Below are positions 26,960 to 40,748 of a stretch of 44,681 bases of DNA, piece by piece. This DNA is from Candidatus Woesearchaeota archaeon (GTDB lineage Archaea > Nanobdellota > Nanobdellia > SCGC-AAA011-G17 > GW2011-AR17), in contig JACRKH010000060.1 in the NCBI GenBank assembly GCA_016235495.1, positions 1 to 44,681 on the forward strand, given 5' to 3'. The position numbers were made by a program, and so were the translations under genes. The stretch's first letter is position 1. Every line of letters begins with the position of its first letter. The notes under the pieces are model-generated. The model was not told the origin of the DNA, made no database searches, and saw only the letters and a list, made by a program, of their open reading frames with translations.

Positions 26960-27421
26960 ATGCAAACTGTCCAGTTCTTAAATACGAGAGAAAAAAAAGA
27001 AATCTATAAGACTTTGGAAGAACAGTTTGGAAGCACAGAAAAATTAGACTATGCCTTTTTTCAGAATTCGCAGGATAAAATATTTTTTATGAGTAATGAC
27101 TATGCAAAGTTAAACACAAATGGTTTAAGAATAAATAATAGGGGCATGTACTTTGCAACAAAAGAAAGAGATGGGATAAGGCTAAGCATTGAAGGTGCCC
27201 AGCTCATAAAACCAACAAAAAATGTTATTCATTTAGATAAAAAACAAGTGGAGCTTTGGATGAAAGGAGAAGATATCCCTATGGAAGGGAGCAATGGCTA
27301 TGTCATTATTCAACATGAGAAGGATATTCTCGGATGTGGCATGCTAAAAAACAATACACTGAGAAACATGGTGCCAAAGGAAAGAAGACTGCATAGCATC
27401 ACAGAATCTTCTGAAGAATAG
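26960..27421 (+). CDS. NIP7/RsmF C-terminal-like PUA protein
   Basis: GMYFA..IRLSIEGAQL..WMKGEDI..GCG..NMVPKERR. Confidence 0.8.
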   Translation: MQTVQFLNTREKKEIYKTLEEQFGSTEKLDYAFFQNSQDKIFFMSNDYAKLNTNGLRINNRGMYFATKERDGIRLSIEGAQLIKPTKNVIHLDKKQVELWMKGEDIPMEGSNGYVIIQHEKDILGCGMLKNNTLRNMVPKERRLHSITESSEE

Positions 27422-27447
27422 GCGTAATTTTTAAAATCAAAAAGAGA

Positions 27448-28014
27448 TTAGCTGATAGTCTTCTGATTAGTCCTATAATCCAGAACATTAAAATGGTCAT
27501 CTAACTCAAAATAAGTCAATGCACAGAAGTCTGATTTGTAGTTCTTCCTTTCTTCTTTTGATTTCTTTAATAGAATAACTACAATATTTGAAATGAACCC
27601 TGCATGTGATATTATGAGTATATTCTGTTCCTTTTGTTTTTTCAGTTTCTGCACAAATCTTTCTGCTCGATGATAGGCATCACTTTCATTTTCCCCTCCT
27701 TCAGGCCTGAATTCTTCTTTGGTTAAGCCTGATTCACGCAGAGCAGTTCTGTATTCCTCTGCAGTCCTGCCTTGGAGAATGCCATTTTTCTGCTCAATAA
27801 CCTCATCTGTGAATTCTACAGGAACATGAAGTATAGCAAGAGTTGGCTCCACAGTTTTTCTAGTCCTATTTAGACTACTACAAATAATTTTATCAATCTC
27901 AAATTTGCAAAGATACTTCGCCAATTTCTGAGCCTGTTCAACTCCTTCCTCTGTCAGTGTATCTTGTTCTTCCCCATATCCTCTTTGTGCATGTCGAATA
28001 AAGTAGAGTTTCAT
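27448..28014 (-). CDS. Histidine phosphatase family protein (cluster A)
   Basis: FIRHA, SSLNRT, PEGGE, SHAG; ATGA overlap with kinase. Confidence 0.88.
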   Translation of the reverse strand: MKLYFIRHAQRGYGEEQDTLTEEGVEQAQKLAKYLCKFEIDKIICSSLNRTRKTVEPTLAILHVPVEFTDEVIEQKNGILQGRTAEEYRTALRESGLTKEEFRPEGGENESDAYHRAERFVQKLKKQKEQNILIISHAGFISNIVVILLKKSKEERKNYKSDFCALTYFELDDHFNVLDYRTNQKTIS

Positions 28015-28832
28015 ATTTTCTTTTCCATGATTTCATTTAATTCCCTTTTAGTTCTTTCAATTGTCTTTTGTGGTCTATGCCTCAAAGCAAAACCTAAGTT
28101 ATAAAGGCTTCTATAAAAAATCCCTGATCTCAAAAATCTTGCAGATTGTTCTTCATTAATATTTAATGGATTTCCTAAATTTTCATAGGTAGCTTTAGCA
28201 AGTTGTTCTAAAATGCCAGTCTTGTTCCTTTTTTCCATATACAAAAAAGCAATATCATACCATGGATTTGCAATGGCAGTAAGTCCAAAGTCTATAAAAT
28301 ATAATCCTTCAGATGAAGGAATACAATGTAGCGACTTAAGGTCTCCATGCACAACACAAAGTGGTGATGAAAGGTTATACTCCCCCCGCATAAATTGCAA
28401 TGCCCTTTCTAATATGTCTTCCTCTTCTATGTTACTCTTAGCAAACTCTTCATTTAAATAAGAAAGTCTATGAAATATTTTTTCTTTACTTAAGTCTATC
28501 CTGGGTAATAAAAACGAAGGGACATCATCCAAAGTTTTGAGATATAATTTACTTATTTCAGCTATGCTCTCTACATCTGTAGGCTCTCTTATTTTTTCGA
28601 TAAATTGAAATTCCAAAAAATCATCGCCAAACATAAATAGTGATGGTATTTTAATGACCTCTTGTTTAGCCAGATATCTATAAGCGAGTTCTTCTCTTGC
28701 TCTCTCTAGTGGACTTGGGAATTTTTTGCAGACTATTCGGAGATTATCTCTTTCAACTGCAAAAGTTTTGCTTTGTTCGGTTTGGCAGAGTAATGCCGTC
28801 TCATAAATTTGGAGATATTCCTCAAAATTCAT
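28011..28832 (-). CDS. APH/choline-kinase-like phosphotransferase (cluster A)
   Basis: VCKK, VVHGDLK, FIDFG, WYDIAFL. Confidence 0.85.
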   Translation of the reverse strand: MNFEEYLQIYETALLCQTEQSKTFAVERDNLRIVCKKFPSPLERAREELAYRYLAKQEVIKIPSLFMFGDDFLEFQFIEKIREPTDVESIAEISKLYLKTLDDVPSFLLPRIDLSKEKIFHRLSYLNEEFAKSNIEEEDILERALQFMRGEYNLSSPLCVVHGDLKSLHCIPSSEGLYFIDFGLTAIANPWYDIAFLYMEKRNKTGILEQLAKATYENLGNPLNINEEQSARFLRSGIFYRSLYNLGFALRHRPQKTIERTKRELNEIMEKKI

Positions 28833-29895
28833 AAGTTTCCCTCAAATCTTTTTGAATTTCTTCTAACAATGCTTTTCTTCCACTACAATAAAATGACCTA
28901 TGTTTTATATCCCCATAAAGCAAAAATGATTCTTGAGGGCAGCCGCCATTGCACTGATTCCAGAACTCACAATTTTTGCATTGACCTTCTTTGAGAGAAT
29001 CAGTTCTTTCTTTCATTCTCTTTTGTGCAGAAGTCTCATGATCTCTCAATGGTTTATCATTAACATTGCCAATAAAATTATTTTTATCTATGCCCCGCAG
29101 GCAAGTATAAAAATCACCATTTGTTTTCACTCCAATCACTGAAAAGTTACAGGTCTGTTGAGAGTATAAACAACCTCCGCATTTACCTTTGACTAGCGCC
29201 TTAATAAATTCAGTTATTGGTTTTATTTCTATAGGCTCAGGATCTTCTTTCCAAATTCTATAAAACTCTTTAATAGACTGTGTATATTCTTGTGATGTTG
29301 GCATTAACGGATCCATAACTTTTTGATTAGCAGCTGATCTTTTCCTAGGGAAATATTCAGAAATTCTAAATCCTCTAACCTGTTTTTTCATTTCATAGTA
29401 GATTTCTTTTTCTTTTCCTAGAACTTCTTTGGTTAAAACCATTACTGCATAAGGTTTTTTATTTAATCCAGAGATATTTTTAATGACTCTATCAAATGAA
29501 GGATTGCCATTTTTATCAACTCTTGAATGGTCATGTATATTCCTTGTTCCCTGTATACTCGTTCCAATTGTGAAACCTTCCTTCTCAAAAAAAGTTATAA
29601 ATTCTTTAGTTAGCAAGGTTCCGTTAGTTTGAATATCATTCAGTATCTTTAAATTATTCGGATTATACTTGCTTTGAAATTCTTTTATTTTTTTAAAGAA
29701 ATCAATGCCTGCAATTAATGGTTCTCCACCATGCCACACAAAATCGACTCTATCTTCACTAGCCTCTAAAATATATGAAATCACTTTTTCAAGAGTCTCT
29801 ATTGACATAATTGGTATTTCAAAAGTTGGTCTAAGACAAAAAGTACAACTAAGATTACAACTCTCAGTAATCTCAATCACAGGTGTCAGATTCAT
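28822..29895 (-). CDS. Radical SAM/SPASM enzyme, anSME-like (cluster A maturase)
   Basis: CNLSCTFC, WHGGEPL, QTNGTLL, SPASM C..C..GDFYTC..CKNCEFWNQCNGGCP..YC. Confidence 0.93.
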   Translation of the reverse strand: MNLTPVIEITESCNLSCTFCLRPTFEIPIMSIETLEKVISYILEASEDRVDFVWHGGEPLIAGIDFFKKIKEFQSKYNPNNLKILNDIQTNGTLLTKEFITFFEKEGFTIGTSIQGTRNIHDHSRVDKNGNPSFDRVIKNISGLNKKPYAVMVLTKEVLGKEKEIYYEMKKQVRGFRISEYFPRKRSAANQKVMDPLMPTSQEYTQSIKEFYRIWKEDPEPIEIKPITEFIKALVKGKCGGCLYSQQTCNFSVIGVKTNGDFYTCLRGIDKNNFIGNVNDKPLRDHETSAQKRMKERTDSLKEGQCKNCEFWNQCNGGCPQESFLLYGDIKHRSFYCSGRKALLEEIQKDLRETYEF

Positions 29896-29944
29896 AGTTG
29901 AATTTCCATCCAGTACTTTATTGCACTAATACCCCATTAAAAAT

Positions 29945-29969
29945 AAAAAAACTTACTTTCTGAAGTTTT
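29945..29969 (-). terminator. Weak hairpin plus T-tract after the precursor ORF
   Basis: AAAACTT-cagaaagt-AAGTTTT running into a T7 tract on the minus strand. Confidence 0.4.
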
Positions 29970-30066
29970 AGTAGCTTTCTGCACCATAATGATCACTATA
30001 AGAAGCTAGTATCTCCTTATCGGACAATGCCTCTAAAACTACCGCCTTTACATTTTCGTTTTTCAT
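29968..30066 (-). CDS. Candidate RiPP precursor A (32 aa)
   Basis: MKNENVKAVVLEALSDKEILASYSDHYGAESY; GGGGG SD-like; first ORF after a TATA box, upstream of rSAM. Confidence 0.75.
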   Translation of the reverse strand: MKNENVKAVVLEALSDKEILASYSDHYGAESY

Positions 30067-30111
30067 TTTATTTTAACCCCCAACAATGCTAAAAATAGAA
30101 TTTAATAAGAA

Positions 30112-30126
30112 TATATAAACTTTTTG
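30112..30126 (-). promoter_or_regulatory. BRE/TATA promoter of cluster A
   Basis: CAAAAAG-TTTATATA on the minus strand, 45 nt above the precursor ATG. Confidence 0.6.
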
Positions 30127-30182
30127 ATAAGTTAGTCCATCTTGGGTGTGAAACGTACTCTCTTTTTAAAAAGGTATATAAA

Positions 30183-30812
30183 TTATTTCTTAAAATCCCC
30201 TAACAAGGGATCACCAATACCATAGGGCTTCTTTGAATAATATTTCTTCGCATGTGCGACAAACAACGCATGATACTCCTTAAACAGTTCTACATCTCTT
30301 GGTAATTCTTTATGAAATAAATTCTGCACTTCTTCGTAAGAAGCATGAGCTTTGATGATTTTATAATGCTCTAAAATTCTCTTCGTATATGCATCCACAA
30401 CAAAGTAAGGCTGCTGATACGCATACAGCAGCATGGAGTCCACAGTCTCCGGCCCTATCCCCCACACAGCAAGCAAATTCTCTCGGTCCACTTCTTTTTT
30501 CGAAGCAAGAAAATCAAGGAAGCAGTGAATCTTTTTTGCTTTCTGATTAAAATACCCTGCAGGCTTAATCAATACTGCAAGTTTCTCTTGTGGCATACGC
30601 AAAGCTTTCTCATGTATTTTTCCAGACAATTGCGCAAGAGCCTTCTCCACATTCACCCAGGAAGTATTCTGCGTGAGTATTGCACCAATGCAAATTTCTA
30701 GTTGTTCTTTTTTATTTGGCAGTCTTCCATCGTACACACCTTGTATTGGCCACCACCCCTGCTTCCCATGCAAAGCAAAGAGTTCTTCATATAACTTAAA
30801 TACTTTTTTCAT
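30183..30812 (-). CDS. Endonuclease III-related HhH-GPD protein
   Basis: GWWP, GAILTQNTSW, LLAVWGIGPETVDS, VVDAYT. Confidence 0.9.
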   Translation of the reverse strand: MKKVFKLYEELFALHGKQGWWPIQGVYDGRLPNKKEQLEICIGAILTQNTSWVNVEKALAQLSGKIHEKALRMPQEKLAVLIKPAGYFNQKAKKIHCFLDFLASKKEVDRENLLAVWGIGPETVDSMLLYAYQQPYFVVDAYTKRILEHYKIIKAHASYEEVQNLFHKELPRDVELFKEYHALFVAHAKKYYSKKPYGIGDPLLGDFKK

Positions 30813-30813
30813 C

Positions 30814-31227
30814 TTATGCAATACGAACAATCTCAAAAACTAATTCCAATTTTCTATCATCAGACTTAAACACAATTTTATCACCAGACTTAAGTCCAAA
30901 TCTTTCTTTTGCTGCTAAAGGACTTTCACTCTCTCCAAGAAAAAATATTTTCACACGCACAAAAGCCCTATGGAATTCATTTTTCCTGAGCCGTGAATAA
31001 TCTATGTACACATAACCGCCCCTTTCTGTCCTTTGAAACTCTCCCTGTTTTTCCTCAATAAAATAATATTTCCTTTCCATAATCTCTGGCAGAAAACTCT
31101 TTGTTCCAGGATTTCTTCCAAAGCTAAAACTATCAACACTATCAGGAATTCTCATCTCTGCAACAAAATTCCCCTTATTTGCCAGAGCAAGAGGAAGGTT
31201 TCGTTCATACACATGAAGGATAAGCAT
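30814..31227 (-). CDS. Hypothetical protein, possibly degenerate FHA-like
   Basis: SFGR..QGEF..YID..LKSGDKIVF pattern. Confidence 0.5.
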   Translation of the reverse strand: MLILHVYERNLPLALANKGNFVAEMRIPDSVDSFSFGRNPGTKSFLPEIMERKYYFIEEKQGEFQRTERGGYVYIDYSRLRKNEFHRAFVRVKIFFLGESESPLAAKERFGLKSGDKIVFKSDDRKLELVFEIVRIA

Positions 31228-31261
31228 AAAAGAAAGAACGCACAAGGAATTATAAAACTTT

Positions 31262-32254
31262 TTATTCTCTATGCCTCAGAGACCAGTCATAATCTTTAAT
31301 TTTATCCTTTGCAAAGAATGTAGGGTGATGCCCTTTTTTGCCAACAAGACCCCAAAGAAGAATTTCCTTCTCAGCTTTATTGAGTTTTCGTATTTTGTCT
31401 TTGCTCTCAAGCTCTTCATCATGAACTAACACACTGTCACACAATCTTTTATAGAAATCTACTGTGAGTGGAGTAGGCAATGCAAATTGTGACATCTGCA
31501 GAGGAACTTTATTCCCTCTTTCATTCAATGTTCGTATCACTGCAAAGTACCCGGCAATCTCATGAGCGCACCAGTTAAAGACACCAGTATCTTGTTTGGC
31601 AAAGCGGATATTAAGATATTCTCCTCGCAGACAGTCATGTCCTTGTGTCATTGTTGCCCATGCAATGCCCCATTTATCAGCATTATCAATAACAGGAACA
31701 TGGTTGATATTAAATTGATACCTTCTCATACCCTTTATTCTTCTTGGAACATGCACATGAAATATAGCTCCATCTTTTTTTACAGCACCTGCACGGGAAT
31801 ATTCTTCAATGCCAACATGTGCAGCAGGAACTTGGTGAACATAAGCATCAATTCTTGCACCTTCAAGGCACTCAACAAGACTCACACGCCTTTCTCTGGT
31901 ATCTCGATGAACATAAGGAACAATAGTTAATGGACTATAGGCATATCCAGCATATGCTTGAGATTCAAGTGCACCAAAGGAATCTATTCTGAAATCAACA
32001 GGAACCCTTGCACCCTTGACAAAGGAAGTAACTCTCTCTCGCAATCCAGCCCGCACAAAAGGACCATGCCTAAGAAAATTCCAGCTGCTGGGATATTTTT
32101 CTGGGACTAATCCTTTAGGAAGAAGAATATAATCACTTTCAGCAATAGAAAGAATAGTTTCTACTAAGTCTTTCTCCACTTCAACAGCATGAAACTCTTG
32201 AATCTCTGTCTTTATAGGCTCTCTAAAAAATCTTTTTTTCTCGTACATAAGCAA
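31262..32254 (-). CDS. Hypothetical protein with possible SWIM-like Zn site
   Basis: 330-aa ORF; HDC..WCAH. Confidence 0.7.
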   Translation of the reverse strand: MLMYEKKRFFREPIKTEIQEFHAVEVEKDLVETILSIAESDYILLPKGLVPEKYPSSWNFLRHGPFVRAGLRERVTSFVKGARVPVDFRIDSFGALESQAYAGYAYSPLTIVPYVHRDTRERRVSLVECLEGARIDAYVHQVPAAHVGIEEYSRAGAVKKDGAIFHVHVPRRIKGMRRYQFNINHVPVIDNADKWGIAWATMTQGHDCLRGEYLNIRFAKQDTGVFNWCAHEIAGYFAVIRTLNERGNKVPLQMSQFALPTPLTVDFYKRLCDSVLVHDEELESKDKIRKLNKAEKEILLWGLVGKKGHHPTFFAKDKIKDYDWSLRHRE

Positions 32255-32322
32255 AAAAGAAAAACTCCCTTTTTATAAAACTTCCCAAAACATTTATAAG
32301 CATTCTTCACCATAGAACGCCT

Positions 32323-33333
32323 ATGAAAGAGCTGATGGAACTGATGAACTTGGAAGCAGTAAGTGGTGATGAAAACACTGTTCGTTCCTACCTTCTCAAG
32401 AAAATTACTCCCCATTGTAAAGATGTAAAGGTGGACAAATCTGGAAACCTCATCGTGCACAAAAAGGGAAAAGGTCCTTCAGTAATGCTTGTTGCACACA
32501 TGGATGAAATAGGTTTAATAATTAAGTCCATAGAGAAAGAAGGAACTATACATGTGGCATTCCTAGGTGATATCGACCCCATAACCTGCATTGGGCAGGA
32601 AGTAGAAATTGCCATAAATAAAAAAAAGAAAATAAAAGGAGTAGTTTCAACCATAAAAATCAATGCGGGAGAGGACATGGAAGCCCTTCCCAAAGAAGAG
32701 GATATCATTGTCGACACAGGTTTGACAAAAGCAGAATTAAAAAAGAAAGGGGTTGACATTGGAAGCTTCTTGGAATTCAACAGGAAATCCACCTTTCTTG
32801 GTTCAGAAAATATTATTGCAGGAAAAGCAGTGGATGATCGCGTAGGTTGTTTTATGCTTTTAGAAAGTATTCGAAGAACAAAGAAATCTCCCGCAGATAT
32901 ATATTATGTGTTTACAGTGCAGGAAGAACTAGGAATGTATGGAGCAAAAACCTCTGTATATAATATTAATCCGGAATGGGCAGTGATTCTAGACACCACC
33001 GAAGCAAAGGATTTCACTGAGGAAACAAATCTGCTTGGAGCTGGTCCAGTCTTGACAATTATGGACTCGGATCAGCTGACAGACAGTCGTCTCAACAAAC
33101 ACATAGAAACTATTGCAAAGAAGAAAAAAATTCCCTTGCAGAAAGAAGTCAATGAAATCAATACTACTGATGCTCTCTTCATTTCTTTGGCAAAGGGAGG
33201 CATACCCGCTGCAGTCCTAAACCTTCCCGTACGCAACCTGCACACCGCGGTAAGCATCGTGCACACAAAAGATATAACAGACCTCTGCAGCCTCTTAGAA
33301 TCACTGCTTAAAAATCCAGCGAGAATAAAATAA
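32323..33333 (+). CDS. M42 family aminopeptidase (TET-like)
   Basis: AHMDEIG, DDRVG, QEELG, RNLHT. Confidence 0.93.
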   Translation: MKELMELMNLEAVSGDENTVRSYLLKKITPHCKDVKVDKSGNLIVHKKGKGPSVMLVAHMDEIGLIIKSIEKEGTIHVAFLGDIDPITCIGQEVEIAINKKKKIKGVVSTIKINAGEDMEALPKEEDIIVDTGLTKAELKKKGVDIGSFLEFNRKSTFLGSENIIAGKAVDDRVGCFMLLESIRRTKKSPADIYYVFTVQEELGMYGAKTSVYNINPEWAVILDTTEAKDFTEETNLLGAGPVLTIMDSDQLTDSRLNKHIETIAKKKKIPLQKEVNEINTTDALFISLAKGGIPAAVLNLPVRNLHTAVSIVHTKDITDLCSLLESLLKNPARIK

Positions 33334-33334
33334 A

Positions 33335-36443: not shown

Positions 36444-36944
36444 TCAGATGCAATTTTTATACATTAATTCTAAAATTCTAAGGATTTTATCATTGTCTTT
36501 ATAAGCTATACAGTATTTTTCGTATAATTTTTTTAAAACCCTTTTTCCTTGTTCCTTTCCTTCAGAATTAAGAATAAACTGGGCGGCTATAGGATGAAAT
36601 AATGAAAGACCATCCGCATATCTAAATATTTTTCCTTCTGGGGTTAAAGGTTTACCAGAAGATCCATGATTCACTATACAATCTTTTTCAATGGCGCCAA
36701 GTTTGTATTTCTTTTCCAAAATCTCTAAGCTGAGTTGGGCATGGTTTTCTTCGTGAATGACTTTTCCAACATCATGAATATAGACTAAGGGCTCCAATTT
36801 TCCAATCTCTATGTTCTCCTCAATTGAGAGTGTCTCTAATAGAGCAAGGACACACCTAGAATGAATAAAATTCCAATCATAATCTTGCTTAGGCAAGATT
36901 TTGAATTTTTCTTTTGCAAATTCTTCTGCTTCTTTTATATTCAT
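36444..36944 (-). CDS. HD-domain phosphohydrolase (cluster B)
   Basis: HSRCV, IHDVGK, HAQLS, NHG, ADGLS. Confidence 0.85.
   Translation of the reverse strand: MNIKEAEEFAKEKFKILPKQDYDWNFIHSRCVLALLETLSIEENIEIGKLEPLVYIHDVGKVIHEENHAQLSLEILEKKYKLGAIEKDCIVNHGSSGKPLTPEGKIFRYADGLSLFHPIAAQFILNSEGKEQGKRVLKKLYEKYCIAYKDNDKILRILELMYKNCI
36540..36564. repeat. 25-bp direct repeat, copy 1
   Basis: CCTTTTTCCTTGTTCCTTTCCTTCA, identical to 40997-41021. Confidence 0.85.
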
Positions 36945-37750
36945 GTTGTTATCGGTCGTGTTTGGAGTATATAAATTTCATTTTTGACAATTCCCCATTC
37001 TATATCCTGAGGAACTCCAAAGAATCTTTCTATTTGAATTCCTTGTTGCATAAGCTCAAATATTTGGTATTTTTGAAGAACAGGTTCTGTATTCATAACG
37101 ACTCTTTCTTCAAGTTTACTTCCCCTAAGAAATAATCCTTTTTCTTGGTTTCCCCTTGTGTAATTATATCTTTTTTTTCCTTTGGCAGCTTCAATATGAT
37201 CTGGATTGACAATACCAGAAACGATATATTCCCCAGTACCAAATATTGCTTCAATAATGATTTCGCCTTTCTCCTGTGAGACAGGATTTTTTGTGAACAT
37301 TATTCCTGAGACATCACAGGGAAGCATCTCTTGAATGAGTATTGCAATATCCGCAACTGCATGTTGACCAGCATAATCCGCATATCTTTGTACTTTAGCC
37401 TTCTCTGGTGAAGAAATAACTTCCATACACGCATCTGCAAGCTCAGTATAAGATACTCCACATTTCGTGAGGAATTGTCCTGCAAAAGAATAGTTTCTAG
37501 AATCTTCACAAGTTGTTGAAGATCGTACAGAAAACGCTACGGCCTTTATGTCTTCTACTGCACTTTCAAGTTTTTCCTGTAAAATTTCTTTGTCGATTGT
37601 TTTTTTTATATATTGCGCTGCTTTGACAGGGATAATTATTCCCTTTGGAATAAGGAACTGAGGATAAAGCTGAAGAAGATTATAGGCTTTATTTCCTATT
37701 TCTTCCTTGCTTAATTCTTTTGCCTTTTGATAGCTTACCATTAATTCCAT
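36941..37750 (-). CDS. Stand-alone PEP/pyruvate-binding (PPDK_N, ATP-grasp) domain
   Basis: GNKAYNL, VRSS..ED..SFAGQF, QEM..SGIMFT, GEYIVSG..PD, DIEW, LQTRPIT. Confidence 0.92.
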   Translation of the reverse strand: MELMVSYQKAKELSKEEIGNKAYNLLQLYPQFLIPKGIIIPVKAAQYIKKTIDKEILQEKLESAVEDIKAVAFSVRSSTTCEDSRNYSFAGQFLTKCGVSYTELADACMEVISSPEKAKVQRYADYAGQHAVADIAILIQEMLPCDVSGIMFTKNPVSQEKGEIIIEAIFGTGEYIVSGIVNPDHIEAAKGKKRYNYTRGNQEKGLFLRGSKLEERVVMNTEPVLQKYQIFELMQQGIQIERFFGVPQDIEWGIVKNEIYILQTRPITT

Positions 37751-38676
37751 TATTCTATCTTATAGACTCTCCCAGCATCTGCATCAAGGTAAACTTTGTC
37801 ACCTGTACGAAGGCGTTTTGTCGCATTATTTGTTCCAACTATACAAGGAACTCCAATCTCCCGAGAAACAATTGCTGCATGGCAAAGGGTTCCTCCTTGA
37901 TCAGTTATAATTCCTTTTGAAGAAATCATATTAGGAGTCATATCAGGATCAGTTCTTGGTGCTACTAAAATCTCACCATCTTGAAAATCTGCAGTATATC
38001 CTTGGATAACTCTGCACAGACCTTCGACCTCTCCTAAAGATGCCTTTAAACCCTTAACTGCTAGAGTTAAATGATGATTATTCCGTTTTCGAAGTGAAAT
38101 AAAATTTTTCATATAACTAATCTCCATGACCTCAGTTAATTCTTGAGTAGAGTATTTCATAAGACCGGCAATAGGATCTGCAACAAGGATCTTACCTTCA
38201 TTTTCTCCATAAATAACGACATGATGAGTACAATCATCTGTAGGATATTTTATTTCAAGAATAGGAATTCTTCCTTCATTTAGCTCTTCAAGAAGTTTTT
38301 GAACAGTAAATTCTTTTCTCACATATTGAAAATGAGAGTTAGGTTCAAGTGATTTAATAATAGGCAGAAATTCCTTCATATATCTGCTCCATTTTGTTCT
38401 GGACATGAATTCTGGTTGCCCTATCCTAGGGATTTGCAACTTTACTTCAAGACCAAGACGCAGAGAATGCCGTGCAAGTTTTGGATAGCTTCCATACTCC
38501 CCATCACCGCCTTTCCAAAACCTAATTTTATCATGAAGGTACATTTCTTCTTCTTCTCCAAGAGGGAAAGTCTCTGGGAAGAAGTGGTGTAATACCATTA
38601 GGTATGATGATGCGACACATGTATAAGGTGTGCTTTGTATATACGTTTCAATATTTTCCATGTTTTTATCCTCCAA
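37750..38676 (-). CDS. C39-like cysteine peptidase fused to a PEP-utiliser mobile (phospho-His) domain
   Basis: QSTPYTC, HHVVIYG, VADP triad; C-terminal TDQGGTLCHAAIVSREIGVPCIVG. Confidence 0.88.
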   Translation of the reverse strand: MEDKNMENIETYIQSTPYTCVASSYLMVLHHFFPETFPLGEEEEMYLHDKIRFWKGGDGEYGSYPKLARHSLRLGLEVKLQIPRIGQPEFMSRTKWSRYMKEFLPIIKSLEPNSHFQYVRKEFTVQKLLEELNEGRIPILEIKYPTDDCTHHVVIYGENEGKILVADPIAGLMKYSTQELTEVMEISYMKNFISLRKRNNHHLTLAVKGLKASLGEVEGLCRVIQGYTADFQDGEILVAPRTDPDMTPNMISSKGIITDQGGTLCHAAIVSREIGVPCIVGTNNATKRLRTGDKVYLDADAGRVYKIE

Positions 38677-39689: not shown

Positions 39690-40748
39690 CTAGACCTCCT
39701 TCACCATTTTTTCAACAAAAAAAGAACAAATAGGATTCTCTGCAAACAATTTCTTTTCTTTCCAATATCCATATGCACAGCAACCGCCACAAAGCTTGAG
39801 ATAGGTACAATGAGCACATCTGCCACCCATATTCCTTTTCCTCATTTGAACAAATTCTGGGCAGCTATCCCATACATCTTTGATATCTCTATTTCCCAAG
39901 TCTGCTATCTCTAAGTTATTAAGCATTGGACAGAAAGAAACATTTCCTTTATTGTTAATGTACATATAACTAATTCCCACACTACAGCCTGAATAAACAT
40001 CTAATGACCCATATCTTCTTTCTATTTCTGCAACTAATTCTGTATTTGCAACAAGAGCTAGAGGATCACCAGAAAAATAAGGCATATCATATTTTTTGCT
40101 TAATGTAGGAAGTTTTTTTAATATTTCTGCATAAGACTCTTTATCCAGAGAGAGTTCATCATAATTATTCTCAGCATTTGCAACATAAATACAACCTCTG
40201 AGACCGAGTTCTACAGCTCCTTTTTCTTTTCCGAATTTAAAGAATCTTTCTATTTGATCCTGATTTCTCTTATTAATTGTCATTCGAAGAACAAAATCAA
40301 TATTATTCCTTTTTGCAATATCAATAGCTCTAAGTACCAGTTCAAAAGAGCGATTATTCTGCCTTAACCAATTATGTGTTTCTGCATTTACCCCATCCAA
40401 GGAAAATTGAATTCGTGTCATACCAGATGCTTTAAGCTTTTTTGCATAGCCCTCCGTAAATAGAGAGCCATTACTTACAACTATAATCTTCACATCTTTA
40501 TCTTGTGATTTTATGAATGCAAGAATTGCAGGAAGATCTTTATGTAACAATGGCTCACCTCCACCAATCTCTAACCATTTAAGATCACTCTTCCAATGCA
40601 AAAATATATTTTTTAAGATTTTCTTGGTTTTAGATAATTCGAGCATATCTTCTGAGAAACGTCCTCTGCAATGAAGGCAAGTAAAGTTACACTTCCCCGT
40701 AATATCAATATGTATTACCCTTGGGACGAATTCATTGTCTTGGAGCAT
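39690..40748 (-). CDS. Radical SAM/SPASM enzyme, PqqE/NirJ-like (cluster B maturase)
   Basis: CNFTCLHC, GGGEPLL, SNG, SLDG, SPASM CSVG..GNVSFCP..CAHC..LCGGCC..PIC. Confidence 0.93.
   Translation of the reverse strand: MLQDNEFVPRVIHIDITGKCNFTCLHCRGRFSEDMLELSKTKKILKNIFLHWKSDLKWLEIGGGEPLLHKDLPAILAFIKSQDKDVKIIVVSNGSLFTEGYAKKLKASGMTRIQFSLDGVNAETHNWLRQNNRSFELVLRAIDIAKRNNIDFVLRMTINKRNQDQIERFFKFGKEKGAVELGLRGCIYVANAENNYDELSLDKESYAEILKKLPTLSKKYDMPYFSGDPLALVANTELVAEIERRYGSLDVYSGCSVGISYMYINNKGNVSFCPMLNNLEIADLGNRDIKDVWDSCPEFVQMRKRNMGGRCAHCTYLKLCGGCCAYGYWKEKKLFAENPICSFFVEKMVKEV

What the first reader, a model, noticed from the sequence alone, without database searches (positions are those of the whole stretch)
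27448..30126. Second candidate RiPP cluster: Tyr/His-rich precursor, SPASM rSAM, kinase and histidine phosphatase
Seen: BRE/TATA, then an unannotated 32-aa ORF (29968-30066, MKNENVKAVVLEALSDKEILASYSDHYGAESY), a hairpin/T-tract, then overlapping rSAM, APH-like kinase and phosphatase genes. LEALSDKEI resembles the ELSxxEL leader motif; all aromatic residues are in the last 10 positions. Known: anSME-like SPASM enzymes include cyclophane-forming maturases (triceptide, darobactin and dynobactin types) acting on Trp/Tyr/His/Phe. No sulfatase gene is nearby. Inference: an aromatic cross-linked, possibly phosphorylated peptide.
Basis: partly seen in the sequence, partly recalled or inferred. Interest (0 to 1): 0.85.

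Follow-up and report, generated by a model that had tools for sequence, protein, structure and literature searches.

The report
Tyrosine-peptide radical-SAM operon with kinase
A tiny-genome archaeon carries a compact, rare four-gene set (a short peptide, a radical enzyme predicted to grip it, a dedicated kinase and a phosphatase) that looks like an undescribed family of enzyme-modified peptides.

Summary
On the minus strand lie a BRE/TATA promoter, a 32-aa ORF, a hairpin/T-tract, then overlapping radical SAM/SPASM, APH-fold kinase and histidine-phosphatase genes.

The small ORF is a real, conserved gene. 13 of 13 loci with a close rSAM homologue carry an ORF just upstream that ends in the same motif. 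48 of 48 distinct peptides end in Y-[S/T]-[E/D]-x-Y-x-G/A-E plus 0-2 residues, behind an N-V-x-x-V leader box. Codon usage shows protein-level selection.

A complex model places the leader box on invariant enzyme residues (score 0.84, best control 0.01).

The kinase (29 proteins in 5.8 billion) and the phosphatase are small families seen only with this rSAM.

The rSAM is a distinct clade near DynA and anSME, below both curated cut-offs. The genome has no sulfatase.

The operon is rare: 0 of 400 other genomes of the phylum have it, and it sits in a variable region.

The chemistry (tyrosine cross-link, phosphorylation) remains inference. His-richness and the ELSxxEL-like leader motif are not family features. 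I found no description in print.

The parts
30112..30126 (-). Archaeal promoter: BRE-like CAAAAAG followed by TATA box TTTATATA, 46-60 nt upstream of the peptide ATG
   Evidence: Read directly. In 10 of 11 AT-rich related loci a TTTAAA/TTTATA box lies about 26-30 nt before the peptide ATG, which suggests leaderless transcripts there.
30076..30081 (-). Shine-Dalgarno-like GGGGGT, 9 nt before the ATG of the peptide gene
   Evidence: Read directly. Its function is inferred.
29968..30066 (-). Precursor peptide gene, 32 aa (MKNENVKAVVLEALSDKEILASYSDHYGAESY), stop codon included
   Evidence: ORF listed. It is homologous to upstream ORFs in 12 other loci. A profile search gave 40 small-ORF representatives out of 42 hits. 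It matches no NCBIfam or Pfam family.
30028..30054 (-). Leader box, residues N5-A13 (NVKAVVLEA); family consensus N-P-N-V-R-x-V-A-L-x-A
   Evidence: N5 is invariant and V6 and A13 are at least 90% conserved in A2. The box is present in 47 of 48 peptides. N5, V6, V9, V10 and A13 are the residues with the lowest predicted error against the rSAM.
29977..30000 (-). Core motif, residues Y23-E30 (YSDHYGAE); family Y-[S/T]-[E/D]-x-Y-x-G-E, followed here by S-Y
   Evidence: 48 of 48 peptides carry it at the C-terminus. Y1, Y5 and E8 are invariant, and position 7 is Gly in 47 of 48. Ser is encoded by both TCN and AGY codons and Gly by all four GGN codons.
29923..29975 (-). Hairpin with a U-rich run (UUUUUUUAUUUUU at about 29939-29951) between the peptide and rSAM genes; a possible attenuator
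   Evidence: -18.3 kcal/mol, z = -3.39. It is not conserved: the spacer is only 6-40 nt in the other 12 loci.
28822..29895 (-). Radical SAM/SPASM peptide maturase, 357 aa. It has CX3CX2C (C13, C17, C20) and eight further invariant Cys (C242, C249, C265, C306, C309, C315, C319, C337).
   Evidence: Best NCBIfam matches are DynA at 245.5 bits (cut-off 450) and anSME at 220.3 bits (cut-off 349.45). The closest PDB entry is anSMEcpe 4K36-39, E = 2e-33.
28011..28832 (-). Dedicated APH-fold kinase, 273 aa. Invariant residues are K36, E47, H162-G-D164-x-K166-x-x-H169 and D181.
   Evidence: The AF2 model has pLDDT 95.1. The top folds are APH(2''), macrolide phosphotransferases and corramycin phosphotransferase.
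27448..28014 (-). Histidine phosphatase (branch 1), 188 aa. Catalytic R7, H8, E74 and H137 are invariant, and there is no signal peptide because the catalytic RH motif is at residues 7-8.
   Evidence: CobC-like, but below the CobC cut-off (80.9 against 162.9 bits).
27433..27443 (-). Oligo-T tracts (TTTTT, TTTT) just after the phosphatase stop codon; the likely end of the operon
   Evidence: Read. A convergent PUA-domain gene ends at 27421. The terminator function is inferred.

Best explanation
This is a self-contained peptide-modification (RiPP-type) operon of a Woesearchaeota-type DPANN archaeon.

Shown or computed:
- A promoter drives a 32-aa precursor made of an N-terminal leader box (N-V-K-A-V-V-L-E-A) and a C-terminal core (Y-S-D-H-Y-G-A-E-S-Y).
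- The radical SAM/SPASM enzyme is predicted to dock the leader box on an invariant patch (F211, Y212, W215, K216, D218, I231, I347, D350) and to thread the core into the barrel next to the SAM site.

Inferred by analogy with its nearest characterised relatives, DynA, DarE and anSME:
- The 5'-deoxyadenosyl radical removes a hydrogen from a side-chain carbon of an invariant core residue.
- An auxiliary cluster takes the electron.
- The result is most likely an intramolecular cross-link involving one of the two invariant tyrosines.

Also inferred:
- The dedicated antibiotic-kinase-fold kinase puts a phosphate on a hydroxyl of the (modified) peptide, at Ser/Thr2 or a Tyr.
- The cytoplasmic histidine phosphatase removes it again. 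The phosphate would then be a transient activating, protecting or self-protecting group.

My odds: about 0.85 that this is a dedicated peptide-modifying system with this ORF as substrate, about 0.5 that the radical step is a Tyr-based cross-link, and about 0.5 that the kinase and phosphatase act on the peptide itself.
For: Precursor peptide:
- An upstream ORF with the same C-terminal motif is present in 13 of 13 close loci.
- 48 of 48 distinct peptides carry the core and 47 of 48 carry the leader box.
- Codon turnover at Ser (TCN and AGY) and Gly (all four GGN) shows selection on the protein.
- Independent gene callers predicted 40 such small ORFs.

Enzyme-peptide fit:
- The complex model scores ipSAE 0.84 (runs 0.80, 0.84, 0.86) against a best control of 0.01.
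- That mark was reached by 58 of 80 solved complexes and 2 of 110 mismatched pairs in the tool's calibration.
- The runs share at least 37% of their contacts and the partner pLDDT is at least 61. My own alignments were used, so the calibration counts hold only roughly.
- The contacted enzyme residues are invariant in 43 of 43 family members.

Gene linkage:
- The kinase lies downstream in 10 of 10 loci with room for it.
- The phosphatase is present in 7 of 8 loci with room.
- Neither occurs in the 110 distant loci.
- The kinase family has only 29 proteins at E <= 1e-5 among 5.8 billion. 11 of the 28 non-self hits share a longest-contig length with an rSAM-family hit.
- The phosphatase family has 23 proteins at E <= 1e-10.

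Enzymes look active:
- The CX3CX2C motif is present in 42 of 43 rows (the remaining row is gapped there) and eight auxiliary-cluster Cys are invariant in 43 of 43 and align with those of anSMEcpe.
- The kinase and phosphatase catalytic residues are invariant.

Not a sulfatase maturase:
- The genome has no sulfatase.
- The rSAM scores below the anSME cut-off.

Precedent for the chemistry:
- DarE is an anSME homologue that makes ether and C-C cross-links, and also makes formylglycine on Ser variants (PMC10705402, passages read).
- An APH-fold kinase inactivates the peptide antibiotic corramycin (PMC10996006, title and start of abstract from the listing; fold match 8agy).
Against: - No modified product, transcript or protein has been observed.
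- The conserved set has no protease, exporter or RRE domain, so release and export of a product are unexplained.
- The kinase and phosphatase resemble small-molecule enzymes (APH and macrolide kinases, CobC), so they may not act on the peptide.
- A kinase and a phosphatase acting on one substrate in one compartment would form a futile cycle unless they are ordered by the radical step.
- The three-residue rule of DynA and DarE (recalled) fits Y1-x-E3 but not Y5-x-G7, because glycine has no beta-carbon.
- The complex score is a model's confidence, not a measurement. Solved rSAM-peptide complexes exist, so part of the pass may come from likeness.
- One locus (L046, 62.7% GC) has the kinase but no detectable phosphatase.
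Confidence: 0.6

Rival explanations
1. The system is the same, but the radical step is anSME-type oxidation of the invariant Ser/Thr at core position 2 to formylglycine or a beta-keto residue, not a cross-link. The kinase and phosphatase would then handle the hydroxyl, enol or hydrate chemistry around it.
For: - The closest solved structure is anSMEcpe (E = 2e-33).
- The anSME HMM scores 220 bits, and all 43 family members match it at E <= 1e-40.
- Core position 2 is Ser in 40 and Thr in 8 of 48 peptides, with no other residue.
- DarE converts introduced Ser residues to formylglycine (PMC10705402, passage read).
Against: - The position aligned with anSMEcpe Asp277 is Leu, Ile or Met in 43 of 43 members. 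That Asp277 is the proposed catalytic base is recalled, not checked: searches found no text.
- The best HMM match is DynA, a cross-linking enzyme, for all 43 members.
- This reading does not explain the invariance of Y1, Y5, G7 and E8.
Confidence: 0.17
2. The peptide is the scaffold of a small intracellular molecule, such as a peptide-derived redox cofactor or signal in the manner of PQQ or mycofactocin. The rSAM would link Tyr and Glu side chains, general proteases would excise the product, and the kinase and phosphatase would work on the excised small molecule.
For: - The core sits at the extreme C-terminus, and its invariant residues are Tyr and Glu. These are the residue types joined in PQQ biosynthesis (recalled).
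- All three enzymes appear cytoplasmic, and the conserved set has no exporter or protease.
- The kinase and phosphatase have small-molecule-enzyme folds and relatives.
- Some loci add a SAM methyltransferase and a second phosphatase, as a tailoring pathway would.
Against: - A cofactor would be expected to follow its dependent enzymes through a lineage. Instead the close rSAM is found in 0 of 400 other genomes of the phylum and 0 of 10 congeners, and it lies in a variable region.
- No PqqB, PqqC or PqqD, and no MftB, MftD or MftE counterpart was seen in the loci.
- No candidate dependent oxidoreductase is conserved nearby.
Confidence: 0.13
3. The kinase is an immunity (self-resistance) enzyme against a toxic mature peptide, as antibiotic kinases are, and the phosphatase reactivates the product. 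Phosphorylation would not be part of the structure of the final product.
For: - The top structural neighbours of the kinase are resistance kinases: APH(2''), Mph and the corramycin phosphotransferase ComG.
- ComG inactivates a peptide antibiotic (PMC10996006, listing).
- The patchy, island-like distribution fits a conflict system.
Against: - The phosphatase has no signal peptide, because its catalytic RH motif is at residues 7-8. Reactivation outside the cell, as in the streptomycin pathway (recalled), is therefore not possible as encoded.
- There is no exporter in the conserved set.
- This reading refines the main one rather than replacing it.
Confidence: 0.2
4. The small ORF is not the substrate. 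The three enzymes would remodel a phosphorylated sugar or nucleotide, as earlier scan notes proposed for kinase-phosphatase-rSAM/SPASM cassettes of CPR bacteria, and the ORF would be a regulatory or unrelated micro-protein.
For: - Earlier notes e1-987320 and e1-1888147 (unchecked) describe superficially similar cassettes without a precursor.
- The kinase and phosphatase are of small-molecule type.
Against: - The ORF is present in 13 of 13 loci, always directly upstream and on the same strand.
- The complex model scores 0.84 against 0.01 for controls, and conserved residues meet conserved residues.
- All top rSAM family matches are peptide or protein maturases.
- The cassettes in those notes use other families (ComB phosphatase, Gfo/Idh/MocA oxidoreductase), and neither the rSAM nor the kinase matched any earlier window by sequence.
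Confidence: 0.05

Closest known systems
DynA / dynobactin maturase (NCBIfam NF041298)
   Same: It is the best-scoring curated family for the window protein (245.5 bits, full-length alignment 4-353 to 2-355) and for all 43 family members. It is a single rSAM/SPASM enzyme without an RRE domain that acts on a short peptide encoded just upstream. Its cross-links involve aromatic residues including Tyr (recalled).
   Different: The score is far below the 450-bit cut-off. The precursor is unrelated: the core has no Trp or Asn and there is a different leader. The host is an archaeon rather than a Gram-negative bacterium. A dedicated kinase and phosphatase are present. No bona fide DynA sequence was available for my tree.
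DarE / darobactin maturase and DarW (NF038005, NF041300)
   Same: It is an anSME-homologous rSAM/SPASM enzyme that abstracts beta-hydrogens in a short C-terminal core and forms ether and C-C cross-links. It also yields formylglycine from Ser variants (PMC10705402, passages read).
   Different: Scores are 147.9 and 152.7 bits against cut-offs of 650. The core is Trp-free. No ABC exporter genes are conserved here.
Anaerobic sulfatase-maturating enzyme (anSME; TIGR03942; PDB 4K36-4K39)
   Same: It is the closest solved structure (E = 2e-33). The CX3CX2C motif and all eight auxiliary-cluster cysteines align.
   Different: The score is 220.3 bits against a cut-off of 349.45. The genome has no sulfatase. 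The Asp277-equivalent is hydrophobic in 43 of 43 members. The family forms its own branch away from source-named anSMEs, with SH-like support of 100.
Antibiotic kinases of the APH fold, including corramycin phosphotransferase ComG (PDB 8agy)
   Same: They share the fold (Foldseek TM 0.59-0.70, E from 6e-11 to 4e-9) and the catalytic H-G-D ... D motifs. ComG shows that such a kinase can take a modified peptide as substrate (PMC10996006, listing).
   Different: Identity is only 10-19%. The family has its own invariant H-G-D-L-K-x-x-H loop, with His where APH enzymes have Asn (the APH motif is recalled). It is genetically coupled to a rSAM and a phosphatase.
PQQ and mycofactocin systems (PqqA/PqqE, MftA/MftC)
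   Same: Each has a short precursor with the reactive residues at or near the C-terminus and an rSAM/SPASM enzyme. Tyr and Glu (PQQ) or Tyr (mycofactocin) are the residues transformed (recalled).
   Different: There is no PqqD/MftB-type RRE partner and no downstream PQQ or Mft genes. The rSAM is much closer to DynA and anSME than to PqqE or MftC, neither of which is among the 25 families listed (of 68 matched). The distribution is far patchier than a cofactor's.

Membership tests
Anaerobic sulfatase maturase (TIGR03942) | Score at or above the curated equivalog cut-off (349.45 bits) | tested here: not met
   220.3 bits. The best E-value among the 43 members is 7e-70.
Anaerobic sulfatase maturase (TIGR03942) | A sulfatase substrate encoded in the genome or beside the gene | tested here: not met
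   PF00884 gives 0 matches in G000 (100% complete) and rings in 10 of 14 control genomes. The neighbours in the close loci are a kinase, phosphatase(s) and a methyltransferase.
Anaerobic sulfatase maturase (TIGR03942) | Asp next to the third auxiliary-cluster-I cysteine (anSMEcpe Asp277; its role as base is recalled) | tested here: not met
   The aligned position 266 is Leu in 23, Ile in 15 and Met in 5 of 43 members.
DynA (NF041298) | Score at or above the curated cut-off (450 bits) | tested here: not met
   245.5 bits. The best E-value among 43 members is 2.8e-74.
DynA (NF041298) | A dynobactin-type precursor beside the gene | tested here: not met
   The 13 precursors match no NCBIfam family beyond chance (best E = 0.041, unrelated families). 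None of the 48 cores has Trp. The composition of the dynobactin core is recalled.
DarE (NF038005) | Score at or above the curated cut-off (650 bits) | tested here: not met
   147.9 bits.
Radical SAM/SPASM peptide maturases (general class) | CX3CX2C radical SAM cluster motif | tested here: met
   C13, C17 and C20 are present in 42 of 43 rows, and the remaining row is gapped there. PF04055 scores 52.6 bits.
Radical SAM/SPASM peptide maturases (general class) | C-terminal SPASM domain with cysteines for two auxiliary 4Fe-4S clusters | tested here: met
   Eight Cys are invariant in 43 of 43 members and align with anSMEcpe C255, C261/263, C276, C317, C320, C326, C330 and C348. The Pfam SPASM model PF13186 itself did not reach E <= 0.01.
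Radical SAM/SPASM peptide maturases (general class) | A conserved cognate precursor peptide encoded beside the enzyme | tested here: met
   Present in 13 of 13 loci. The 48 distinct peptides share the core and 47 of them the leader box.
Radical SAM/SPASM peptide maturases (general class) | The enzyme binds and modifies the peptide | tested here: inconclusive
   The model supports binding (0.84 against 0.01 for the best control). Modification cannot be tested with these tools.
APH / protein-kinase-like phosphotransferases (PF01636) | HMM score above the cut-off, the kinase fold and the catalytic residues | tested here: met
   37.4 bits against a cut-off of 23.2. The AF2 model has pLDDT 95.1 and its top folds are APH(2'') and Mph. 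K36, E47, D164 and D181 are invariant in 29 of 29 sequences.
Histidine phosphatase superfamily branch 1 (PF00300) | HMM score above the cut-off and the catalytic Arg-His ... Glu ... His residues | tested here: met
   112.6 bits against a cut-off of 21.7. R7, H8, E74 and H137 are invariant in 9 of 9 sequences.
Alpha-ribazole phosphatase CobC (TIGR03162) | Score at or above the curated cut-off (162.9 bits) | tested here: not met
   80.9 bits. Two sources name relatives 'alpha-ribazole phosphatase', which looks like name transfer.
Class V lanthipeptide-type kinase/lyase pairs (recalled) | An APH-like kinase paired with a phospho-Ser/Thr lyase and a cyclase, with a Cys-containing core | not tested
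   No lyase-like or cyclase-like gene was seen in the loci and the core has no Cys. No reference sequences were compared.

The most novel reading that the evidence does not exclude
A new class of ribosomal peptide product, in which an anSME/DynA-like radical enzyme joins the invariant Tyr and Glu side chains of a C-terminal Y-S-E-A-Y-x-G-E core. A dedicated kinase/phosphatase pair would run an obligatory phosphorylated intermediate. The outcome would be a small Tyr/Glu-derived molecule (quinone-like cofactor, signal or toxin) that ultra-small DPANN archaea use in dealing with their hosts. Neither this chemistry nor this enzyme combination has a described precedent.
Probability: 0.2. Interest if true: 0.85.

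Novelty: new variant of a known kind. Interest (0 to 1): 0.62.

Why it matters
Radical SAM/SPASM peptide maturases near anSME have recently given darobactin and dynobactin, so each new clade with a defined precursor is a lead to new cross-link chemistry.

This clade comes with a clean, testable substrate: an 8-residue invariant core, a defined leader box and a predicted docking patch. It also has two partner enzymes, an orphan APH-fold kinase and a histidine phosphatase, which I did not find described with any rSAM RiPP.

It sits in an 867-kb DPANN archaeal genome. Such organisms are thought to shed most biosynthesis, and archaeal RiPPs are little explored. That a rare accessory operon is kept there suggests a role in interaction with hosts or competitors.

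The system is small enough (about 2.7 kb, four genes) for direct heterologous reconstitution.

Tried and rejected
- Expression data: no RNA holder was listed for the stretch. Only DNA runs of one groundwater study were listed, one of them the probable source.
- Distribution among relatives: the phylum-wide and relatives searches for more copies found none. 0 of 400 other genomes matched at E <= 1e-70, and 2 of 60 relatives had only 31-32% identical paralogue-like genes. The genome-contig scan gave one close locus, L004.
- Literature, all without a description of this system: 'radical SAM + RiPP + DPANN' gave 5 papers, none relevant by title or abstract. 'radical SAM + precursor peptide + histidine phosphatase + kinase' gave 0 papers. 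'SPASM + RiPP + archaea + phosphotransferase' gave 1 irrelevant paper. 'YSEAY' gave 11 papers, none relevant among the 10 listed.
- anSMEcpe Asp277: searches for text on its role found nothing usable, so that role is recalled.
- Earlier scan notes: nothing at this place and nothing by rSAM or kinase sequence.
- Tree: it could not include authentic DynA, DarE, XyeB, GrrM or FxsB sequences because no tool supplied them. Curated HMM scores were used instead.
- ELSxxEL-like leader idea: rejected as a family feature.
- Conserved attenuator: rejected, because the hairpin exists only in this window's longer spacer.
- Supplementary files of papers were not consulted.

Full report
**What is there**

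- A BRE-like CAAAAAG plus TATA box TTTATATA lies at 30126-30112, and a GGGGGT box lies 9 nt before an ATG.
- A 32-aa ORF occupies 29968-30066.
- A 72-nt spacer follows. It folds into a hairpin with a U-rich run (-18.3 kcal/mol, z = -3.39, 2 of 200 shuffles as good).
- Three translationally coupled genes come next:
  - a radical SAM enzyme, 28822-29895, 357 aa, PF04055 at 52.6 bits;
  - an APH-family kinase, 28011-28832, 273 aa, PF01636 at 37.4 bits, with an 11-nt overlap;
  - a branch-1 histidine phosphatase, 27448-28014, 188 aa, PF00300 at 112.6 bits, with a 4-nt ATGA overlap.
- Oligo-T tracts follow the last stop codon, and a convergent PUA-domain gene ends at 27421.

The window is contig 43 of an 867-kb, 67-contig genome that is 100% complete by markers. 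Source names of homologues and earlier scan notes place it among Woesearchaeota-type DPANN archaea.

**The radical SAM enzyme**

Against NCBIfam the best matches are:
- DynA, the dynobactin maturase: 245.5 bits, cut-off 450;
- anaerobic sulfatase maturase: 220.3 bits, cut-off 349.45;
- then DarW, DarE and other peptide maturases, all far below their cut-offs.

All 43 aligned family members behave the same way, with best E-values of 2.8e-74 for DynA and 7e-70 for anSME. The closest solved structure is anSMEcpe (4K36-39, E = 2e-33).

The CX3CX2C motif and eight further cysteines are invariant. They align with the eight auxiliary-cluster ligands of anSMEcpe, so this is a two-auxiliary-cluster SPASM enzyme even though the Pfam SPASM model itself does not fire.

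The residue aligned with anSMEcpe Asp277 is Leu, Ile or Met in 43 of 43 members. That this Asp is the proposed base is my recollection. Searches found no text on it.

The genome contains no sulfatase: PF00884 gives 0 matches here and rings in 10 of 14 control genomes. A sulfatase-maturase role is therefore excluded here.

**A discrete family**

In 5.8 billion proteins the search listed about 50 relatives at 47-71% identity. There is then a cliff to 34% identity and below.

I built a FastTree of 84 sequences. These were 23 of the 43 family members, 26 proteins read from loci, and 35 of the more distant hits. In it the family is one side of a branch with SH-like support of 100 and length 0.67, and source-named anSMEs lie elsewhere.

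**The small ORF is a conserved precursor**

The genome and metagenome scans gave 12 further loci with a close homologue (49-56% identity): L004, L044-L053 and L075.
- In all 12 loci and in the window (13 of 13), the reading frame that ends 6-72 nt upstream of the rSAM start codon terminates in Y-[S/T]-[E/D]-x-Y-x-[G/A]-E plus 0-2 residues.
- The same pattern occurs once, non-terminal and 3 kb from the enzyme, in the six-frame translation of the 110 more distant loci.
- The alignment (A2) shows an invariant Asn and a leader box N-P-N-V-R-x-V-A-L-x-A. A spacer that varies in length and sequence follows, and then the core.
- At the DNA level Ser2 is encoded by TCT, TCC, TCA, AGT and AGC, and Gly7 by all four GGN codons. 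Tyr and Glu alternate between their synonymous codons. The conservation is therefore on the protein.
- A profile of the 13 peptides, run against 1.84 billion cluster representatives, found 42 hits at E <= 1e-3. 40 of them are 32-75-aa ORFs that other pipelines had already called. The other two are large proteins that match only the leader part.

Pooled, there are 48 distinct peptides:
- 48 of 48 end in the core;
- position 1 is Tyr in 48;
- position 2 is Ser in 40 and Thr in 8;
- position 3 is Glu in 44 and Asp in 4;
- position 4 is Ala in 40, Ser in 6, Gly in 1 and His in 1;
- position 5 is Tyr in 48;
- position 6 is Gly in 18, Gln in 15, Ser in 14 and Thr in 1;
- position 7 is Gly in 47 and Ala in 1;
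- position 8 is Glu in 48;
- 47 of 48 have the leader box.

The window's peptide is the outlier at positions 4 (His) and 7 (Ala). The peptide is therefore Tyr-based but not His-rich as a family.

In 10 of 11 AT-rich loci a TTTAAA/TTTATA box lies about 26-30 nt before the peptide ATG. This fits a promoter that serves the peptide gene first. No NCBIfam or Pfam family covers the peptides.

**Predicted enzyme-peptide fit**

I ran a complex prediction with my two alignments.
- The scores were 0.80, 0.84 and 0.86 (median 0.84), against 0.01 for the best of three controls.
- The runs share at least 37% of their contacts, and the partner pLDDT is at least 61.
- In the tool's calibration this mark was reached by 58 of 80 solved complexes and 2 of 110 mismatched pairs. 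Those counts hold only roughly with my own alignments.

The best-determined contacts join leader residues N5, V6, V9, V10 and A13 to enzyme residues W215, K216, D218, P221, I231, K232, V235, I347, D350 and L351. W215, K216, D218, I231, I347 and D350 are invariant in 43 of 43 members.

Core-proximal residues 19-25 touch barrel residues 2, 4, 6, 51, 53, 87, 151, 177 and 179. They also touch the family-specific C242-x-Y-S-Q loop.

This supports binding but does not show it. Solved rSAM-peptide complexes exist, so some of the pass may come from likeness. The anSME structures, however, hold only short substrate peptides without a leader (recalled).

**The partner enzymes are dedicated**

Gene presence:
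- tblastn finds the kinase directly downstream in 10 of 10 loci with enough sequence. L052 holds only the first 45 codons, a weak match. L053 and L075 end inside the rSAM gene.
- It finds the phosphatase in 7 of 8 loci with room. The exception is L046, which has 62.7% GC against 28-36% for the others.
- Neither gene occurs in the 110 distant loci.

The kinase family:
- It has only 29 proteins at E <= 1e-5 in the 5.8-billion set, all at least 40% identical.
- 11 of the 28 non-self hits share their longest-contig length with an rSAM-family hit.
- Its invariant residues are K36, E47, H162-G-D164-L-K166-x-x-H169 and D181.
- The AlphaFold model has pLDDT 95.1.
- The nearest folds are APH(2''), macrolide 2'-phosphotransferases and, at rank 21, the corramycin phosphotransferase. 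TM scores are 0.59-0.70 and identities 10-19%.

The phosphatase family:
- It has 23 proteins at E <= 1e-10.
- R7, H8, E74 and H137 are invariant.
- Its nearest structures are CobC-type phosphatases.
- It scores 80.9 bits, below the CobC cut-off of 162.9.

Two loci (L047 and L051) insert a SAM-dependent methyltransferase and a second histidine phosphatase between the rSAM and the kinase. No protease, exporter or RRE protein is conserved.

**Distribution**

- The close rSAM was found in 0 of 400 other genomes sampled across the phylum, all at least 90% complete. It was found in none of 10 congeners.
- Three congeners keep the flanking GluRS and PUA genes and the w33335, L10 and L1 genes, but have other content in between.
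- In one congener (G003) the PUA gene is followed at once by a homologue of window gene 30814-31245.
- The HhH-GPD gene next to the operon was also not found in 5 congeners at E <= 1e-20.

The operon is thus an accessory element in a variable region. One high-GC copy indicates spread beyond AT-rich DPANN genomes.

**How it most likely works**

Shown or computed:
- a conserved precursor with a leader and a C-terminal core;
- an intact rSAM/SPASM enzyme predicted to bind it;
- two intact, dedicated phosphoryl-transfer enzymes.

Inferred:
- The enzyme abstracts a hydrogen from a side-chain carbon in the core and forms a cross-link that involves an invariant Tyr. This is by analogy with DynA and DarE, which are anSME homologues that couple an aromatic residue to the beta-carbon two residues on. 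The anSME homology and the ether and C-C cross-linking of DarE are supported by PMC10705402 (passages read). The DynA chemistry and the two-residue spacing are recalled.
- Y1-x-E3 fits that rule. Y5-x-G7 does not. Tyr5 as the hydrogen donor with Glu3, Glu8 or Ser2 as the partner is an alternative.
- The kinase then phosphorylates a hydroxyl, or does so beforehand, and the phosphatase removes the phosphate.

The main chemical rival is anSME-type oxidation of Ser/Thr2 to an aldehyde or ketone. DarE performs this on Ser variants. The missing Asp277 equivalent and the DynA-first HMM ranking speak against it.

Other rivals are a PQQ- or mycofactocin-like small molecule, an immunity role for the kinase, and a non-peptide substrate. 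The last is made unlikely by the 13 of 13 linkage and the complex model.

**Novelty**

The kind of system, an rSAM/SPASM-modified ribosomal peptide, is known. Three things appear undescribed:
- this enzyme clade;
- its Y-S-E-A-Y-x-G-E precursor family;
- the obligatory pairing with an orphan APH-fold kinase and a histidine phosphatase, in DPANN archaea.

No curated family covers the enzyme above its cut-off, and none covers the peptide. Four literature searches found nothing. Large mining studies and their supplements, which I could not see, may list it without comment. I therefore rate it a new variant of a known kind, with interest 0.62.

Noticed in passing
It holds an rSAM/SPASM gene (39690-40748; PF04055 and PF13186), an unknown 301-aa gene, a C39-like peptidase fused to a PEP-utilising mobile domain (37750-38676), a PPDK_N ATP-binding domain protein (36941-37750) and an HD-domain protein (36444-36944).
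   Followed up: no
L056 3177-3338; L002 1284-1475; L058 3671-3970: Sister rSAMs of 30-35% identity also have upstream small ORFs with Tyr- and acid-rich C-termini. One of them, L002, comes from a genome of the same family as the window's. L056 ends ...YSDGYGDDKYGDYADSESYSDDGD. L002 ends ...RPYDLSSAGPYPDY. L058 is rich in K-Y-x-D-Y. This hints at a wider radiation of Tyr-peptide maturases without the kinase or phosphatase.
   Followed up: partly
L046 (7251 nt, 62.7% GC): This is a high-GC copy of the system with peptide, rSAM and kinase but no detectable phosphatase. The next gene is a PMT_2 glycosyltransferase-like membrane protein. It presumably belongs to a different lineage from the AT-rich DPANN copies.
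   Followed up: partly
L047 5064-6309; L051 5098-6366: This is a variant operon with a SAM-dependent methyltransferase (PF13649) and a second, 23-28% identical histidine phosphatase inserted between the rSAM and the kinase.
   Followed up: partly
window 27422-33334: This is a variable region between conserved blocks (the GluRS and PUA genes on one side, w33335, L10 and L1 on the other). Congeners G001, G003 and G004 carry different content here. The HhH-GPD glycosylase gene at 30183-30836 was not found at E <= 1e-20 in 5 congeners.
   Followed up: partly
P0208 (1701 aa) and P0214 (1581 aa), hits: Two very large proteins match only the leader part of the peptide profile, in 5 and 4 separate stretches (E = 1.8e-6 and 4.6e-4). 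Whether this reflects repeats of a leader-like helix or a compositional artefact was not examined.
   Followed up: no
window 30814-32254 (minus strand): Two genes with no Pfam match (143 aa and 330 aa) lie next to the operon region. The 330-aa one has a 57% identical homologue in congener G004.
   Followed up: no
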